In this document: piece by piece, positions 2,268-5,650 of the stretch
Layout: each line of letters begins with the position of its first letter
Numbering within the stretch: the stretch's first letter is position 1
Virus record (IMG/VR): IMGVR_UViG_2541047502_000017
Strand: one strand, 5' to 3'
DNA from: a virus
Lineage: Duplodnaviria > Heunggongvirae > Uroviricota > Caudoviricetes
DNA length: 5,650 nt
The notes under the pieces: generated by a model
Database searches by the model: none
Seen by the model: only the letters and a program-made list of their open reading frames with translations
What the model was told of the DNA's origin: nothing
Program-made: the position numbers and the translations under genes

Positions 2268-2846
2268 ATGAAGGGGCTTGAGAATGCCATCCGCAATCTG
2301 AACAGCCTTGATACCCGTATGGTGCCACAGGCCAGCGCATGGGCGATAAACCGTGTGGCACAGAAAGCGGGCTCGGTTGCCACCCGGCAGGTTGCCGGGA
2401 ATACCGTTGCGGGAGATAACCAGGTGAAAGGGATCCCCCTGAAACTGGTTCGTCAGCGTGTCCGGGTGTTTAAAGCCAGTCCGTCAGGAAAAATGACGGC
2501 CAGGATCCGCGTTAACCGGGGCAATCTGCCCGCCATTAAGCTGGGGACAGCCCGGGTCAGACTGGCCCAGCGTGGTGGAAAACTGCAGTACCGTGGCAGT
2601 GTGCTGAAGGTGGGTAAATATCTTTTCCGGGATGCGTTTATTCAGCAACTGGCGAATGGTCGCTGGCATGTGATGCGGCGTATTGATGGCAAAAATCGTT
2701 ACCCCATTGATGTGGTGAAAATCCCGCTGTCCGGACCGCTGACACAGGCATTTGAAGATGCCCGCGACCGCATCATTGCTGCGGAAATGCCGAAACAGCT
2801 GGGGTATGCACTGAAACAACAACTGAGGTTATGGCTGACCCGATGA
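2268..2846 (+). CDS. Tail completion protein, lambda Z-like
   Basis: 192 aa, the same length as lambda gpZ. N-terminus MKGLENAIRNL…AWAINRVAQKA and C-terminus …NGRWHVMRRIDGKNRYPIDVVKIP…LGYALKQQLR resemble gpZ as I recall it. AGAGGTG ribosome-binding site at 2257-2263. Synteny FII-Z-U-V. Confidence 0.8.
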   Translation: MKGLENAIRNLNSLDTRMVPQASAWAINRVAQKAGSVATRQVAGNTVAGDNQVKGIPLKLVRQRVRVFKASPSGKMTARIRVNRGNLPAIKLGTARVRLAQRGGKLQYRGSVLKVGKYLFRDAFIQQLANGRWHVMRRIDGKNRYPIDVVKIPLSGPLTQAFEDARDRIIAAEMPKQLGYALKQQLRLWLTR

Positions 2847-3244
2847 ACCGACATACACAAATCCGCCAGGTCGTACTGGCACGCCTTCGGGAACAGTGTG
2901 GAGACAGCGCCACGTTTTTTGACGGGCTTCCGGCATTTGTTGATGCGCAGGAACTGCCTGCCGTGGCGGTGTGGCTGAGTGATGCTCAGTACACCGGAAA
3001 AATGACGGATGAAGATGACTGGCAGGCTGTTCTGCATATTGCTGTCTTCATCCGGGCACAGGCACCGGATTCAGAGCTGGATATGTGGATGGAGAGCACC
3101 ATTTTCCCGGCCCTGAATGATGTATCGGCACTTTCCGGACTCATCGACACCCTGATCCCACTCGGTTTTAACTATCAACGTGATAATGAGATGGCCACCT
3201 GGGCGATGGCGGAAATCACGTACCAGATCACGTACACGAATTAA
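2843..3244 (+). CDS. Tail terminator protein, lambda U-like
   Basis: Start ATG at 2843 overlaps the Z stop in an ATGA arrangement (TGA 2844-2846). The product MNRHTQIRQVVLARL…ATFFDGLPAFVDAQELPAVAVWLSDAQYTG…DSELDMWMES…ITYQITY closely parallels lambda gpU (…ATFFDGRPAVFDE…PAVAVYL…DSELDAWMES…LTYVITY). An in-frame ATG at 2831 is an alternative start. Stop TAA at 3242-3244. Confidence 0.85.
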   Translation: MNRHTQIRQVVLARLREQCGDSATFFDGLPAFVDAQELPAVAVWLSDAQYTGKMTDEDDWQAVLHIAVFIRAQAPDSELDMWMESTIFPALNDVSALSGLIDTLIPLGFNYQRDNEMATWAMAEITYQITYTN

Positions 3245-3254
3245 GGAGGTGGTA

Positions 3255-3998
3255 ATGACCACGCCAAATCCACTGGCAAAGACGAAAGGTGCGGGGACGA
3301 CGTTCTGGATGTATACCGGCAACGGCGATGCGTTTGCGAACCCTTTGTCGGACACTGACTGGCTGCGTCTTGCGATGGTGAAGGATCTGCAACCTGGCGA
3401 AATGACCGCTGATGCAGAAGATGACACTTATCTCGATGATGAAGATGCAGACTGGAAAACGACAACCCAGGGGCAGAAATCCGTTGGTGATACTTCGGCG
3501 ACGCTGGCCTGGCGTCCGGGTGACAGCGGGCAGAAAAAACTGGTTCAGTTGTTCGACTCCGGTGAAGTCTGCGCGTTTCGTATCAAATATCCCAACGGCA
3601 CTGTTGATGTTTTCCGCGGCTGGCTGAGCTCACTGGGTAAAACCATTGCCTCAAAAGACGTGATGACCCGCACAGTGAAAATCAGCGGTGTGGGGCGTCC
3701 ATATCTGGCAGAGGAGGGCACTGAAACTGTGGGCGTTACCGGGCTGACGGTGGCACCGGCATCCGCCAGTGTCAATGTGGGAGCAACCACCACGCTGACC
3801 TTTACAGTAAAACCTGACGGAGCCAGTGACAAAGCGATCAGTGTGCATTCGACAGATCCACAGACAGCCACTGTGACCCTGAACGGACTTGTGGCCACGG
3901 TGAAAGGCGTGAAGCAGGGCAGCGTCAGCATTGTGGGCATGACCGCTGACGGGAATTTTGTGGCTGTGGCTGCGGTGACTGTCAGCGCTGCAGGTTAA
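3255..3998 (+). CDS. Major tail tube protein, lambda V-like, with C-terminal Ig-like (Big_2-type) domain
   Basis: Strong ribosome-binding site AAGGAGGT at 3243-3250, 4 nt before the ATG at 3255. The N-terminus MTTPNPLAKTKGAGTTFWMYTGNGDAFANPLSDTDW…YLDDEDADW…GDTSATLAWRPGDSGQ…YPNGTVDVFRGWLSSLG matches lambda gpV nearly motif for motif. The C-terminal ~90 aa (GLTVAPASASVNVGATTTLTFTVKPDG…) look like a Big_2 Ig-like domain. The ORF-track start at 3180 lies inside the U gene and is rejected. Stop TAA at 3996-3998. Confidence 0.9.
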   Translation: MTTPNPLAKTKGAGTTFWMYTGNGDAFANPLSDTDWLRLAMVKDLQPGEMTADAEDDTYLDDEDADWKTTTQGQKSVGDTSATLAWRPGDSGQKKLVQLFDSGEVCAFRIKYPNGTVDVFRGWLSSLGKTIASKDVMTRTVKISGVGRPYLAEEGTETVGVTGLTVAPASASVNVGATTTLTFTVKPDGASDKAISVHSTDPQTATVTLNGLVATVKGVKQGSVSIVGMTADGNFVAVAAVTVSAAG

Positions 3999-4018
3999 CA
4001 GGACGATACTCATCATTT

Positions 4019-4042
4019 GCCCCGGTTATCCGGGGCTTTTTT
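4019..4042 (+). terminator. Rho-independent terminator/attenuator between the major tail gene and the chaperone gene
   Basis: GCCCCGG (4019-4025), loop TTAT, CCGGGGC (4030-4036) give a perfect 7-bp GC-rich stem, followed directly by TTTTTT (4037-4042). It starts 20 nt after the V-like stop and lies just upstream of the G-like ribosome-binding site. Confidence 0.55.
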
Positions 4043-4055
4043 GCAGGTGGAGAAC

Positions 4056-4445
4056 ATGATGTTTCTGAAACAGGGCACGTTTAATTATGAAAAGCAGTCC
4101 GTGGTGCTCAGTGAGCTGTCCGGGCTGCAGAGAATTGAATATCTGGCGTTTGTTCAGCAGCGAACGGCAAAGTTTGATGCCGAAGAGGGAGAACTGCCGG
4201 AGGCTGAACGACAGATTGCTTTTCTGCGGATGGGGATGGATATCAATGCCTGGCTGGTTTCCCGCTCACTGTGGAATGCGGAACAGTCTCAGGATGTTGA
4301 GACGCTTTGCGCATCCGTTATTACAACATGGTCGTATGATGCCCTGGGAGCGGGGGCGGAGATGGTTCTGTCGCTGAGCGGTATGGGAGCCATTGAGAAT
4401 GCCGGGGATTTGGAGCATGAGGTGCTGACGCCGGAAAAGTCCTGA
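4056..4445 (+). CDS. Tail assembly chaperone, lambda G-like
   Basis: MMFLKQGTFNYEKQSVVLSELSGLQRIEYLAF… parallels lambda gpG (MFLKTESFEHNGVTVTLSELSALQRIEHLA…). AGGTGGAG ribosome-binding site at 4045-4052. The start is ATG 4056 or the adjacent ATG 4059. The ORF-track start at 4017 is a TTG inside the terminator hairpin. Stop TGA at 4443-4445. Confidence 0.85.
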   Translation: MMFLKQGTFNYEKQSVVLSELSGLQRIEYLAFVQQRTAKFDAEEGELPEAERQIAFLRMGMDINAWLVSRSLWNAEQSQDVETLCASVITTWSYDALGAGAEMVLSLSGMGAIENAGDLEHEVLTPEKS

Positions 4446-4783
4446 CGCGGGAAATGCAGTTTGTCATGCGGCTTGCCCGGGAGTTCCGGCGGGCAGACTG
4501 GCGGCGGATGCTGTCGGAAATGTCGGCCACTGAGCTTGGTGAGTGGGGCGATTATTTCCGGATGCAGAGCTTCAGTGATGTGTGGATGGATGCGCAGTTT
4601 GCCTCGCTGAAGGCATTGATCGTGAGAATGGTGTCCGGTAGCAGTGATGCTGCGGTGGCTGATTTCAGCCTTTTACCGGAAGAGAACGGGATACCGGAGC
4701 GAACGGACGAAGAACTGATGCATCTTGGGGAAGGTATTTCCGGAGGTGTGCGTTATGGACCAGATAGCCAACCTGGTCATTGA
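4056..4783 (+). CDS. Tail assembly chaperone G-T fusion product, made by a -1 frameshift near 4433-4439 (two-segment CDS: 4056 to about 4439 in frame 0, then about 4439 to 4783 in frame -1)
   Basis: The downstream ORF (4454-4783 in the track) is in the -1 frame relative to G, overlaps the G 3' end, and has no ribosome-binding site of its own. This is the conserved G/G-T architecture upstream of tape measure genes in long-tailed phages. Stop TGA at 4781-4783. Confidence 0.7.
4433..4439 (+). other. Putative -1 programmed ribosomal frameshift site (heptamer G GAA AAG) for the G-T fusion
   Basis: The -1 frame is open only from 4421 (stop TGA at 4418-4420) and the G frame stops at 4443, so the shift must occur within 4421-4442. 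The only slippery element in that interval is GAA-AAG at 4434-4439, preceded by G. It differs by one base from lambda's G GGA AAG. Confidence 0.55.
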
Positions 4784-5390
4784 TTTGGGGATTGATGCGG
4801 CAGAGTTTAAAAATGAAATTCCCCGTATCAAAAACCTTCTGAATGGTGCAGCCAGCGATGCAGAACGGTCTTCTGCCCGTATGCAGCGTTTTATGGAGCG
4901 TCAGACTCAGGCCGCCCGGCAGACAATGCAGGCGGCTTCTTCGGCTGCAACAGCCGCATCCGTCCATGCGCAGACGGTGGAGAAGAGCGCACAGGCTCAT
5001 GAACGCATGGCCCGCGAGGTGGAGCAAACCCGCCAGCGTATGGAGGCACTGAGCCAGAAAATGCGCGAGGAACAGGCGCAGGCCATGGCTCTGGCGGAGG
5101 CTCAGGATAAAGCGGCTGCTGCGTTTTATCGTCAGATTGACAGTGTGAAACAGGCCGGTGCGGGGCTGCAGGAATTACAGCGTATTCAGCAACAGATCCG
5201 ACAGGCCAGAAACAGTGGCGGGATTGGTCAGCAGGATTATCTGGCGCTGATTTCTGAGGTTACGGCGAAAACCCGTGTTCTTACACAGGCTGAGGAAGAG
5301 GCTACCCGACAGAAAGTGGCGTTTATCCGTCAGCTTAAAGAGCAGGCAACCCGCCAGAATCTTTCTTCTTCTGAGTTGCTTCGTGCGTAA
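4755..5390 (+). pseudogene. Tape measure protein gene, N-terminal ~212 codons only; truncated by an insertion sequence
   Basis: GGAGGTG ribosome-binding site at 4742-4748 and ATG at 4755, overlapping the end of T by 29 nt. The N-terminus MDQIANLVIDLGIDAAEFKNE… resembles lambda gpH (…VGDLVVDLSLDAARFDEQ…), followed by Ala/Gln/Arg-rich coiled-coil-like sequence typical of tape measure proteins. Tape measure proteins of tails this type are usually 700-1100 aa, but this frame stops at TAA 5388-5390, which sits inside the GTAAGCG terminal motif of the IS. Confidence 0.7.
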
Positions 5391-5650
5391 GCGTACATCC
5401 TGAACCGTCTGGTCAGAATCTGACGAATTAGACAAAGTGGTGTCCACCAAATAAGTAGTGGGAACCAAAGTATCAGATATGCAGAAAAATGTGACTCCCG
5501 GCAGGCGAAAAGGCTGCCCTAATTATCCTCCCGAATTTAAACAGCAGCTCGTTGCTGCCTCCTGTGAACCCGGGATATCCATCTCAAAACTTGCTCTTGA
5601 AAATGGCATTAACGCCAATCTGTTGTTCAAATGGCGACAACAATGGCGCG
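5387..5650 (+). mobile_element. IS66-family insertion sequence, left end (continues beyond the window)
   Basis: The sequence beginning GTAAGCG at 5387 matches the 5'-GTAAGCG terminal inverted-repeat motif I recall for the IS66 family. About 90 bp further in, an ORF begins whose product resembles IS66-family TnpA/orf1. It interrupts an otherwise conserved phage gene. Confidence 0.6.
5479..5650 (+). CDS. IS66-family transposase accessory protein TnpA (orf1), N-terminal 57 codons; 3' end beyond the window
   Basis: Frame 1 is open from the ATG at 5479 to the window end. Translation: MQKNVTPGRRKGCPNYPPEFKQQLVAASCEPGISISKLALENGINANLLFKWRQQWR, with a helix-turn-helix-like segment and the ANLL…W(R/K)QQW motif typical of IS66-family orf1 proteins. 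It is not in the ORF track because it has no stop within the window. Confidence 0.65.
   Translation, partial: MQKNVTPGRRKGCPNYPPEFKQQLVAASCEPGISISKLALENGINANLLFKWRQQWR

What the first reader, a model, noticed from the sequence alone, without database searches (positions are those of the whole stretch)
4421..4445. G/G-T -1 frameshift with a non-canonical slippery heptamer (G GAA AAG)
The overlap of the two frames confines the shift to a 22-nt interval, and the only slip-prone sequence there is GGAAAAG. Lambda uses G GGA AAG. Here the P-site codon is GAA, so tRNA-Glu would have to re-pair on GGA with a G·U wobble in the middle position, while the A-site lysine tRNA re-pairs AAG to AAA perfectly. 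The variant site may change frameshift efficiency and hence the G to G-T ratio.
Basis: partly seen in the sequence, partly recalled or inferred. Interest (0 to 1): 0.5.

Follow-up and report, generated by a model that had tools for sequence, protein, structure and literature searches.

The report
Known GGAAAAG frameshift site, phage G-T
This is the ordinary ribosomal frameshift site that lambda-like phages use to make a small amount of a fused tail-assembly chaperone (G-T); its GGAAAAG slip sequence departs from the textbook pattern but is the commonest form in this gene family and is already annotated in phages N15, phi80 and LLS.

Summary
Gene G (4059-4445, PF06894) ends CCG GAA AAG TCC TGA. 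The T frame (PF06223) is the -1 frame and is open from 4421, so the two frames overlap for 22 nt (4421-4442). GGAAAAG (4433-4439), in the register G_GAA_AAG, is the only slip-prone sequence in that overlap.

Among 64 distinct homologous G/T junctions, 49 have GGAAAAG at the same aligned position, within otherwise variable sequence. T-frame protein conservation starts right after the heptamer. The candidate start ATG 4454 is not conserved.

It is not new. The GenBank records of N15, phi80 and LLS mark GGAAAAG as the -1 slippery sequence. The Gifsy-1 and Gifsy-2 records describe the frameshift. PRFect lists the motif class. Peng et al. 2019 tested G GAA AAG in vitro as a poorly slippery sequence.

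I found no conserved downstream RNA structure. An SD-like GAGGTG lies 9-10 nt upstream but is specific to this clade and untested.

This copy sits in a defective prophage whose tape-measure gene is cut by an IS66-family element at about 5387. RefSeq annotates T as a separate ORF. Interest is low.

The parts
4059..4445 (+). Gene G, the tail assembly chaperone and zero-frame product (128 aa). ATG 4056 is an alternative start.
   Evidence: PF06894 Phage_TAC_2, E=1.8e-39. RefSeq annotates gpG from the equivalent of 4059. Ayreon annotates it from the equivalent of 4056.
4433..4439 (+). Slip site G_GAA_AAG. The P-site codon is GAA (Glu) and the A-site codon is AAG (Lys).
   Evidence: Register confirmed. 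It is conserved at the aligned position in 49 of 64 distinct junctions. The same heptamer is annotated as the -1 slippery sequence in N15, phi80 and LLS.
4421..4442 (+). The 22-nt interval where both the G frame and the -1 (T) frame are open. The shift must occur here.
4418..4420 (+). TGA stop in the -1 frame. It closes the T frame upstream.
4443..4445 (+). TGA stop of G, one codon after the heptamer. Shifted ribosomes bypass it.
   Evidence: In relatives the G stop lies 0, 1 or 5 codons after the heptamer.
4439..4783 (+). T segment read in the -1 frame after the shift (114 aa plus stop). The predicted G-T fusion is 241 aa.
   Evidence: PF06223 Phage_tail_T, E=5e-15. The fusion aligns colinearly with lambda, N15, phi80, LLS and Gifsy-1 G-T.
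4454..4456 (+). ATG that RefSeq uses as a free-standing start for T. It is probably not a real start.
   Evidence: RefSeq CDS. The ATG is not conserved (CTG, CGT and others in relatives). The invariant residue E5 of the T alignment lies upstream of it.
4419..4424 (+). SD-like GAGGTG, 9-10 nt upstream of the heptamer. It is a candidate stimulator and is untested.
   Evidence: Sequence. A GAGG or AGGA 4-mer is present at similar spacing in the window clade and the Pantoea group, but absent in the N15, phi80 and lambda groups.
3255..3998 (+). Major tail protein V with a Big_2 domain. It is the upstream neighbour that defines the locus.
   Evidence: PF16461, E=1.2e-66, and PF02368.
4019..4042 (+). 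Terminator-like hairpin with a T tract, between V and G.
   Evidence: The Ayreon record annotates a terminator here.
4755..5386 (+). 5' part of the tape-measure gene. It is the downstream neighbour and is truncated.
   Evidence: Annotated as tape measure in relatives. It is identical to the intact O157:H7 copy up to 5386.
5387..5650 (+). Left end of an IS66-family element (tnpA ORF from 5479) that interrupts the tape-measure gene.
   Evidence: (PF01527).

Best explanation
The site is the programmed -1 ribosomal frameshift site of a lambda-like tail assembly chaperone pair.

Most ribosomes translate G (4059-4445) and stop at TGA 4443. A minority slip back one base when GAA and AAG (4434-4439) occupy the P and A sites. 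The single E. coli tRNA-Lys re-pairs from AAG to AAA. tRNA-Glu re-pairs from GAA to GGA, with G:C at position 1, G.U at position 2 and A:U at position 3. Translation then continues GTC CTG ACG... in the T frame. The product is a 241-aa G-T fusion with the junction ...LTPEK-VLTRE....

By analogy with lambda, abundant G and rare G-T coat the tape-measure protein, and the T domain recruits the major tail protein.

What is shown here: the ORF geometry, the domain identities and the conservation of the site. What is inferred: the slip itself, the tandem two-tRNA mechanism, its frequency and the chaperone role.

In this particular copy the tape-measure gene is broken by an IS element. The site is therefore a relic here, but it matches the site in phage isolates 98-99.8% identical over this region.
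For: - Locus order V, G, T, tape measure, with PF06894 and PF06223.
- T is in the -1 frame and overlaps G by 22 nt. A_AAG is the only perfectly re-pairing site in the overlap.
- GGAAAAG is kept in Gifsy-1, Gifsy-2 and Fels-1 at about 68-70% nucleotide identity.
- 49 of 64 distinct junctions, from many Enterobacterales genera, have GGAAAAG at the same aligned place. The others have GGGAAAG, GGTAAAG, GGCAAAA, AGAAAAG or GGGAAAA. Some phage relatives have AAAAAAG or CCCAAAA.
- Heptamer position 1 is a zero-frame third-codon position. It is G in 61 of 63 junctions, although the codon varies over GCG, CCG, CTG, GTG, TTG, ATG, ACG and AAG. That points to selection on the nucleotide. It is what P-site re-pairing needs, given that tRNAs reading GNA codons carry C36 (established tRNA knowledge).
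- T-frame residues are conserved from the first codon after the heptamer.
- The records of N15, phi80 and LLS annotate this heptamer as the slippery sequence, and LLS and phi80 give joined CDSs.
- The Gifsy-1 and Gifsy-2 records name the frameshift.
- The region is 98-99.8% identical to that of phage isolates Ayreon, mEp460 and cdtI.
Against: - There is no experimental product for this phage type in anything I could reach.
- In a reconstituted E. coli system, G GAA AAG gave mainly the 0-frame product and was used as the poorly slippery control (PMC6924986).
- A_AAG alone is barely above background without a stimulator (Sharma 2014, PMC4066793).
- I found no conserved downstream structure. The window fold has z = -0.85 and -0.54. 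The consensus fold of 32 sequences has -1.43 kcal/mol and no covariation.
- Heptamer position 3 also tolerates T and C, where P-site re-pairing would be poor. That weakens the strictly tandem model.
Confidence: 0.85

Rival explanations
1. The site and product are the same, but the mechanism is single-tRNA slippage. Only tRNA-Lys slips on A_AAG, which is the tetranucleotide or NNA_AAG hexanucleotide mode used by IS1222 and B. subtilis cdd. The slip could occur with AAG in the P site while the A site waits for TCC, or for a stop codon in relatives. tRNA-Glu would not re-pair.
For: - A_AAG or A_AAA is the only universally kept part of the site, and heptamer position 3 can be A, G, T or C.
- In 13 of the distinct junctions a stop codon follows the heptamer directly (AAG TAG/TAA, AAA TAG). 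In many others, including the window, it follows after one codon.
- Tandem slippage on G GAA AAG is poor in vitro.
- NNA_AAG motifs are an accepted class (PMC5009743).
Against: - Heptamer positions 1 and 2 are G in 97% and 100% of junctions, although position 1 is a variable-codon wobble position. Single-tRNA slippage of Lys does not need them.
- A_AAG alone needs a strong stimulator, and none is conserved.
Confidence: 0.25
2. T is a separate gene translated from its own start, ATG 4454, as RefSeq annotates it. No frameshift is needed.
For: PGAP annotates a 109-aa 'phage tail assembly protein T' from this ATG. An ATG is present in this clade.
Against: - The ATG is replaced by CTG, CGT and other codons in Gifsy-1, Fels-1, Gifsy-2, N15, phi80, lambda and most other relatives.
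- The only purine-rich stretch, GGGAA, abuts the ATG with no spacer.
- T-frame residues upstream of it are conserved, with E5 invariant.
- In lambda, the G-T fusion made by frameshifting and its ratio to G are what tail assembly requires, and no free-standing T product is described there (reviewed in PMC5009743).
Confidence: 0.05
3. The extra product arises by transcriptional slippage on the A run (RNA polymerase deleting one A), not by ribosomal slippage.
For: A run of four A's is present (4435-4438).
Against: - Productive transcriptional slippage needs much longer homopolymer runs, about 7 or more (established knowledge).
- The conserved G's flanking the run and the strict codon register are features of ribosomal slippage.
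Confidence: 0.01

Closest known systems
Phage lambda G / G-T -1 programmed frameshift (Levin, Hendrix & Casjens 1993; Xu, Hendrix & Duda 2004, 2013, 2014)
   Same: - Same gene order (V, G, T, tape measure).
- Same Pfam families.
- Same -1 direction.
- The slip site is at the homologous aligned codons.
- The fusion aligns along its full length.
   Different: - Lambda has G_GGA_AAG (a canonical X_XXY_YYZ heptamer). Here it is G_GAA_AAG, so the P-site tRNA is Glu instead of Gly, and it re-pairs with a middle-position G.U.
- G ends 1 codon after the site here, and 5 codons after it in lambda.
- T is 114 aa here and 144 aa in lambda.
N15 genes 14/15, phi80 G/G-T and phage LLS genes 11/12, whose GenBank records mark GGAAAAG as the -1 slippery sequence
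   Same: Identical heptamer, register and aligned position. LLS and phi80 carry joined CDSs across it.
   Different: - The T segment is only about 40-42% identical in protein.
- Those phages have 5 codons between the site and the G stop.
- They lack the SD-like element seen upstream here.
Gifsy-1, Gifsy-2 and Fels-1 prophages of Salmonella
   Same: They share the context CC GGAAAAG (T/C)CC TGA, with the stop one codon after the site. The Gifsy records state that T is made by translational frameshifting.
   Different: About 68-70% nucleotide identity. Otherwise equivalent.
NNA_AAG hexanucleotide and A_AAG tetranucleotide -1 shift sites (IS1222 G_CGA_AAG, B. subtilis cdd A_CGA_AAG; Licznar 2003, Sharma 2014)
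   Same: A_AAG is the efficient A-site element in E. coli, paired with an imperfectly re-pairing P-site codon that ends in A.
   Different: Here the bases at heptamer positions 1-2 are conserved and allow 2-3 re-pairs of the P-site tRNA. No strong stimulator is evident.
PRFect 'twofour' motif class, and its discussion of tRNA-Glu re-pairing on GGA through G:U (McNair et al. 2024, PMC10885494)
   Same: GGAAAA fits the XXYYYY pattern. The same G:U rationale is published there.
   Different: That work is a statistical motif catalogue drawn mostly from actinophages. It gives no analysis of this family.

Membership tests
Lambda-type G/G-T tail assembly chaperone frameshift | Two ORFs lie between the major tail gene and the tape-measure gene, with the second in the -1 frame and overlapping the end of the first. 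| tested here: met
   V 3255-3998, G 4059-4445, T frame 4421-4783, tape measure from 4755.
Lambda-type G/G-T tail assembly chaperone frameshift | Sequence homology to gpG and to the T segment. | tested here: met
   PF06894, E=1.8e-39, and PF06223, E=5e-15. The fusion aligns with lambda gpGT.
Lambda-type G/G-T tail assembly chaperone frameshift | A conserved slippery sequence inside the overlap. | tested here: met
   GGAAAAG at 4433-4439. It occupies the same aligned position in 49 of 64 distinct junctions, and the other junctions carry related heptamers there.
Lambda-type G/G-T tail assembly chaperone frameshift | The downstream ORF lacks a conserved start of its own. | tested here: met
   ATG 4454 is not conserved, and conserved T-frame residues lie upstream of it.
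Lambda-type G/G-T tail assembly chaperone frameshift | The fusion protein is actually produced at a low percentage and is required for tail assembly. | not testable with these tools
   This needs expression, mass spectrometry or genetics. Data exist only for lambda (PMC3296357; PMC5009743).
Canonical X_XXY_YYZ slippery heptamer | Positions 1-3 are identical, positions 4-6 are identical, and both tRNAs re-pair with only wobble-position changes. | tested here: not met
   Positions 1-3 are G, G, A. tRNA-Glu would face G at the middle codon position (PMC6924986).
A_AAG tetranucleotide / NNA_AAG hexanucleotide -1 shift sites | A_AAG is in the zero-frame register, preceded by a codon ending in A. 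| tested here: met
   GAA AAG is in the G frame. The class is described in PMC5009743 and PMC4066793.
A_AAG tetranucleotide / NNA_AAG hexanucleotide -1 shift sites | Dependence on a stimulator (downstream structure or upstream SD). | tested here: inconclusive
   There is no significant or conserved downstream structure. An SD-like 4-mer lies 6-17 nt upstream in 26 of 64 junctions, against 2-15 of 64 in control windows. It is clade-specific and confounded by acidic codons.
dnaX-type SD-stimulated -1 frameshift | An SD-like sequence about 10 nt 5' of the heptamer, plus a 3' stem-loop. | tested here: inconclusive
   GAGGTG at 4419-4424 has the right spacing. It varies to GAGGCG in close relatives and is absent in the N15, phi80 and lambda groups. 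There is no 3' stem-loop.

The most novel reading that the evidence does not exclude
The true family-wide shift motif would be G_GNA_AAG, with GAA as the preferred P-site codon. In vivo, tandem slippage with a middle-position G.U re-pair of tRNA-Glu would be adequate or even favoured, despite its poor performance in vitro. It might be helped by unrecognised, clade-specific stimulators such as the SD-like GAGGTG 9-10 nt upstream or the nearby G stop codon. Both slipping tRNAs (Glu and Lys) carry mnm5s2U34. The G:GT ratio of these very common E. coli and Salmonella prophages would therefore depend more strongly on host tRNA thiolation than lambda's does.
Probability: 0.25. Interest if true: 0.4.

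Novelty: already known. Interest (0 to 1): 0.17.

Why it matters
There are three practical points.

1. RefSeq annotates T as a free-standing ORF, with no ribosomal slippage, in this prophage family. The family is present in about 1,850 of 5,426 complete E. coli genomes. Those records therefore lack the real G-T fusion product.
2. Searches restricted to X_XXY_YYZ heptamers, such as Sharma 2014, would miss this site. Yet it is the commonest heptamer in the T-domain family in my survey.
3. There is a gap between the poor in vitro slipperiness of G GAA AAG and its wide natural use. It is a small, cleanly testable question about P-site re-pairing rules and tRNA modification.

None of this changes the understanding of tail assembly.

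Tried and rejected
- **Downstream stimulatory RNA.** Single-sequence folds of 4440-4530 and 4400-4500 gave z = -0.85 and -0.54. RNAalifold on 32 diverse junctions gave only a trivial 4-bp helix with no covariation. Rejected as a conserved feature.
- **Universal upstream SD-like stimulator.** It is enriched (26 of 64 against 2-15 of 64 in control windows) but absent from whole clades, and it is confounded by Glu/Asp codons. I keep it only as a clade-specific hypothesis.
- **Independent start at ATG 4454.** Rejected on conservation.
- **Chance occurrence of the heptamer.** The heptamer count in the window is not informative: 4 copies against 0.94 expected. I relied on register and conservation instead.
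- **Viral-contig scan with the single T protein.** It returned only 100%-identical copies. They were useful only to show 80 of 80 retention. Diversity came from the alignment-based genome scan.
- **Literature.** Xu et al. 2004 (Mol Cell) is not held. Full-text searches for GGAAAAG or 'G GAA AAG' together with phage and slippery terms found only Peng et al. 2019. I could not find a measured in vivo efficiency for this heptamer in a phage context.
- **Large searches not run.** I did not run the large protein-database or structure searches. Family membership was already unambiguous from Pfam and the annotated relatives.

Full report
**What the window is.** Pfam scans of the ORFs show the head-tail module of a lambda-like prophage.

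- Protease/capsid fusion, up to 1578
- Cement protein, 1665-1988
- Gifsy-2-family head-tail protein, 1981-2256
- Z, 2268-2846
- U, 2831-3244
- Major tail protein V with a Big_2 domain, 3255-3998
- G (PF06894, E=1.8e-39), 4056/4059-4445
- An ORF in another frame with PF06223 Phage_tail_T (E=5e-15)
- The start of the tape-measure gene at 4755

The 4000-4800 stretch is 98-99.8% identical to phages Ayreon, mEp460, cdtI, Tritos and others. It occurs in 1,848 of 5,426 complete E. coli genomes, including O157:H7.

**Checking the observation.** Translating the three forward frames confirms it in full.

- G ends ...CCG GAA AAG TCC TGA (4443-4445).
- The -1 frame has TGA at 4418-4420 and is open from 4421 to 4783.
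- The overlap is 22 nt (4421-4442).
- GGAAAAG is at 4433-4439 in the register G_GAA_AAG.
- Within the overlap, AAG to AAA is the only perfect -1 re-pairing and GAA to GGA is the only partial one.
- The predicted junction is ...LTPEK|VLTREMQF....

The heptamer on its own is not rare: 4 copies in the window against 0.94 expected. Its weight comes from where it sits and how it is conserved.

**Comparative evidence.** Gifsy-1, Gifsy-2 and Fels-1, at about 68-70% nucleotide identity, all keep CC GGAAAAG (T/C)CC TGA.

I aligned eight T segments and scanned one genome per bacterial species with that alignment. This gave 78 loci across Enterobacterales. A script located the T-frame opening, the G stop and the in-register AAA codon in each locus. 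The 64 distinct junctions had the following heptamers.

| Heptamer | Junctions | Where |
|---|---|---|
| GGAAAAG | 49 | many genera |
| GGGAAAG | 5 | lambda itself, E. albertii, Edwardsiella |
| GGTAAAG | 4 | Pantoea |
| GGCAAAA | 2 | |
| AGAAAAG | 2 | Morganella |
| GGGAAAA | 1 | |
| AAAAAAC | 1 | a remote hit |

More distant phage relatives use AAAAAAG (Stx phages) or CCCAAAA (Vibrio phages).

Column identity across the heptamer is 0.97, 1.00, 0.81, 1.00, 1.00, 1.00 and 0.95, against about 0.3-0.7 for most upstream columns. Position 1 is a zero-frame third-codon position. It is G in 61 of 63 junctions, although the codon it ends varies over GCG, CCG, CTG, GTG, TTG, ATG, ACG and AAG. That is selection on the nucleotide rather than on the amino acid. 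All 80 near-identical viral contigs keep the heptamer while nearby positions are polymorphic.

**The T frame is read as a fusion.**

- T-frame protein conservation starts at the first codon after the heptamer: K-[VA]-[LF]-x-x-E-[LM]-x-F. E5 and F8 are invariant.
- The ATG at 4454, which RefSeq uses as the start of a separate T gene, lies downstream of E5. It is replaced by CTG and other codons in most relatives.
- The conceptual 241-aa fusion aligns colinearly with lambda gpGT and with the fusions of LLS, phi80, N15 and Gifsy-1. There is no gap at the junction.

**Mechanism.** The best reading is -1 slippage with GAA and AAG in the P and A sites. tRNA-Lys moves to AAA. tRNA-Glu moves to GGA, with G:C at position 1, G.U at position 2 and A:U at position 3. 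The conserved GG at positions 1-2 favours this two-tRNA model.

A rival with the same product is single tRNA-Lys slippage on A_AAG, the NNA_AAG class reviewed in PMC5009743. Three things support it. Position 3 is tolerant (A, G, T or C). In many relatives a stop codon follows the site directly or after one codon. And G GAA AAG gave mainly 0-frame product in a reconstituted system (PMC6924986). Sharma et al. found A_AAG to be the best tetramer, but barely above background without a stimulator (PMC4066793).

**Stimulators.** I found no downstream structure. The single-sequence folds gave z = -0.85 and -0.54. The consensus fold of 32 sequences gave -1.43 kcal/mol with no covariation.

An SD-like GAGGTG lies 9-10 nt upstream of the heptamer. 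The window clade and the Pantoea group have GAGG or AGGA at similar spacing, but the N15, phi80 and lambda groups do not. The enrichment is 26 of 64 junctions against 2-15 of 64 in control windows, and it is confounded by acidic codons. This remains a hypothesis.

**Comparison with what is known.**

- Lambda has GGGAAAG at the homologous place and shifts about 4% of the time (PMC3296357).
- The GenBank records of N15, phi80 and LLS mark GGAAAAG as the slippery sequence, and LLS and phi80 give joined CDSs.
- The Gifsy-1 and Gifsy-2 records state the frameshift.
- PRFect lists a 'twofour' motif class and discusses tRNA-Glu re-pairing on GGA through G:U (PMC10885494).

The site fails the strict X_XXY_YYZ definition. 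It is nevertheless a clear member of the lambda-type G/G-T system, and the heptamer variant is already on record. The finding is therefore correct but not new.

**What remains open.** The in vivo efficiency of GGAAAAG is unknown. So is the choice between tandem and single-tRNA slippage, and so is the role of the SD-like element. One untested inference follows from established tRNA biology and from Maynard et al.. Both candidate slipping tRNAs carry mnm5s2U34, so the G:GT ratio may be more sensitive to host thiolation than it is in lambda.

**State of this copy.** The window is identical to an intact O157:H7 prophage up to 5386. It then diverges into an IS66-family end, with a tnpA ORF from 5479. 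The tape-measure gene is cut after about 211 of 1,021 codons, so this prophage cannot build tails and the frameshift site is a relic here.

**Verdict.** The novelty rating is "already known", and interest is low.

Noticed in passing
window 5387-5650 (junction at about 5386/5387): An IS66-family element (left end GTAAGCG..., tnpA ORF from 5479, PF01527) interrupts the tape-measure gene after about 211 codons, so this prophage copy is tail-defective. No complete E. coli genome in the collection carries this exact junction; the best coverage of 5300-5650 was 82%, and that was the IS part only.
   Followed up: partly
window 4454-4783, and L005 5455-5784: RefSeq/PGAP annotates T as a free-standing 109-aa protein starting at ATG 4454, with no ribosomal_slippage feature. 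This annotation stands in a prophage family found in about 1,850 complete E. coli genomes. The G-T fusion product is therefore missing from those annotations.
   Followed up: yes
window 4019-4042 and 1602-1622: There are two intrinsic-terminator-like hairpins with T tracts. One lies between V and G (7 G-C pairs plus T6, annotated as a terminator in phage Ayreon). The other lies after the capsid gene. They could attenuate transcription into the low-copy tail genes.
   Followed up: no
L142-L148, L150-L154, L160, L162-L164, L166: Lambda G/T junction sequence identical to lambda's sits on short or low-coverage contigs of unrelated assemblies, including Neobacillus, Oceanobacillus, Kitasatospora, Pseudomonas, Shewanella, Leeuwenhoekiella, Enterococcus and Pseudoxanthomonas. 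This is most likely lambda control or vector DNA contaminating those assemblies.
   Followed up: no
L134, L136, L137, L139 (Pantoea); L098, L100; L102, L103 (Morganella); L140: Other non-canonical heptamers occupy the homologous site.
- G_GTA_AAG, preceded by a strong GGGGAGGA about 10 nt upstream (Pantoea).
- G_GCA_AAA followed directly by TAG (L098, L100).
- A_GAA_AAG followed directly by TAA (Morganella).
- G_GGA_AAA followed directly by TAG (L140).

The cases with an adjacent stop codon look like 'shifty stop' arrangements.
   Followed up: partly
alignment columns -14/-13 and -4 relative to the heptamer (window 4419-4420 and 4429): A GA dinucleotide (a zero-frame Glu/Asp codon) five codons upstream is 90-92% conserved, and a C at position -4 is 84% conserved. 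This gives a recurrent peptide [ED]-x-[VL]-[TS]-x-E-K just before the junction. I cannot say whether it reflects a protein constraint or a nascent-peptide or RNA effect on the shift.
   Followed up: no
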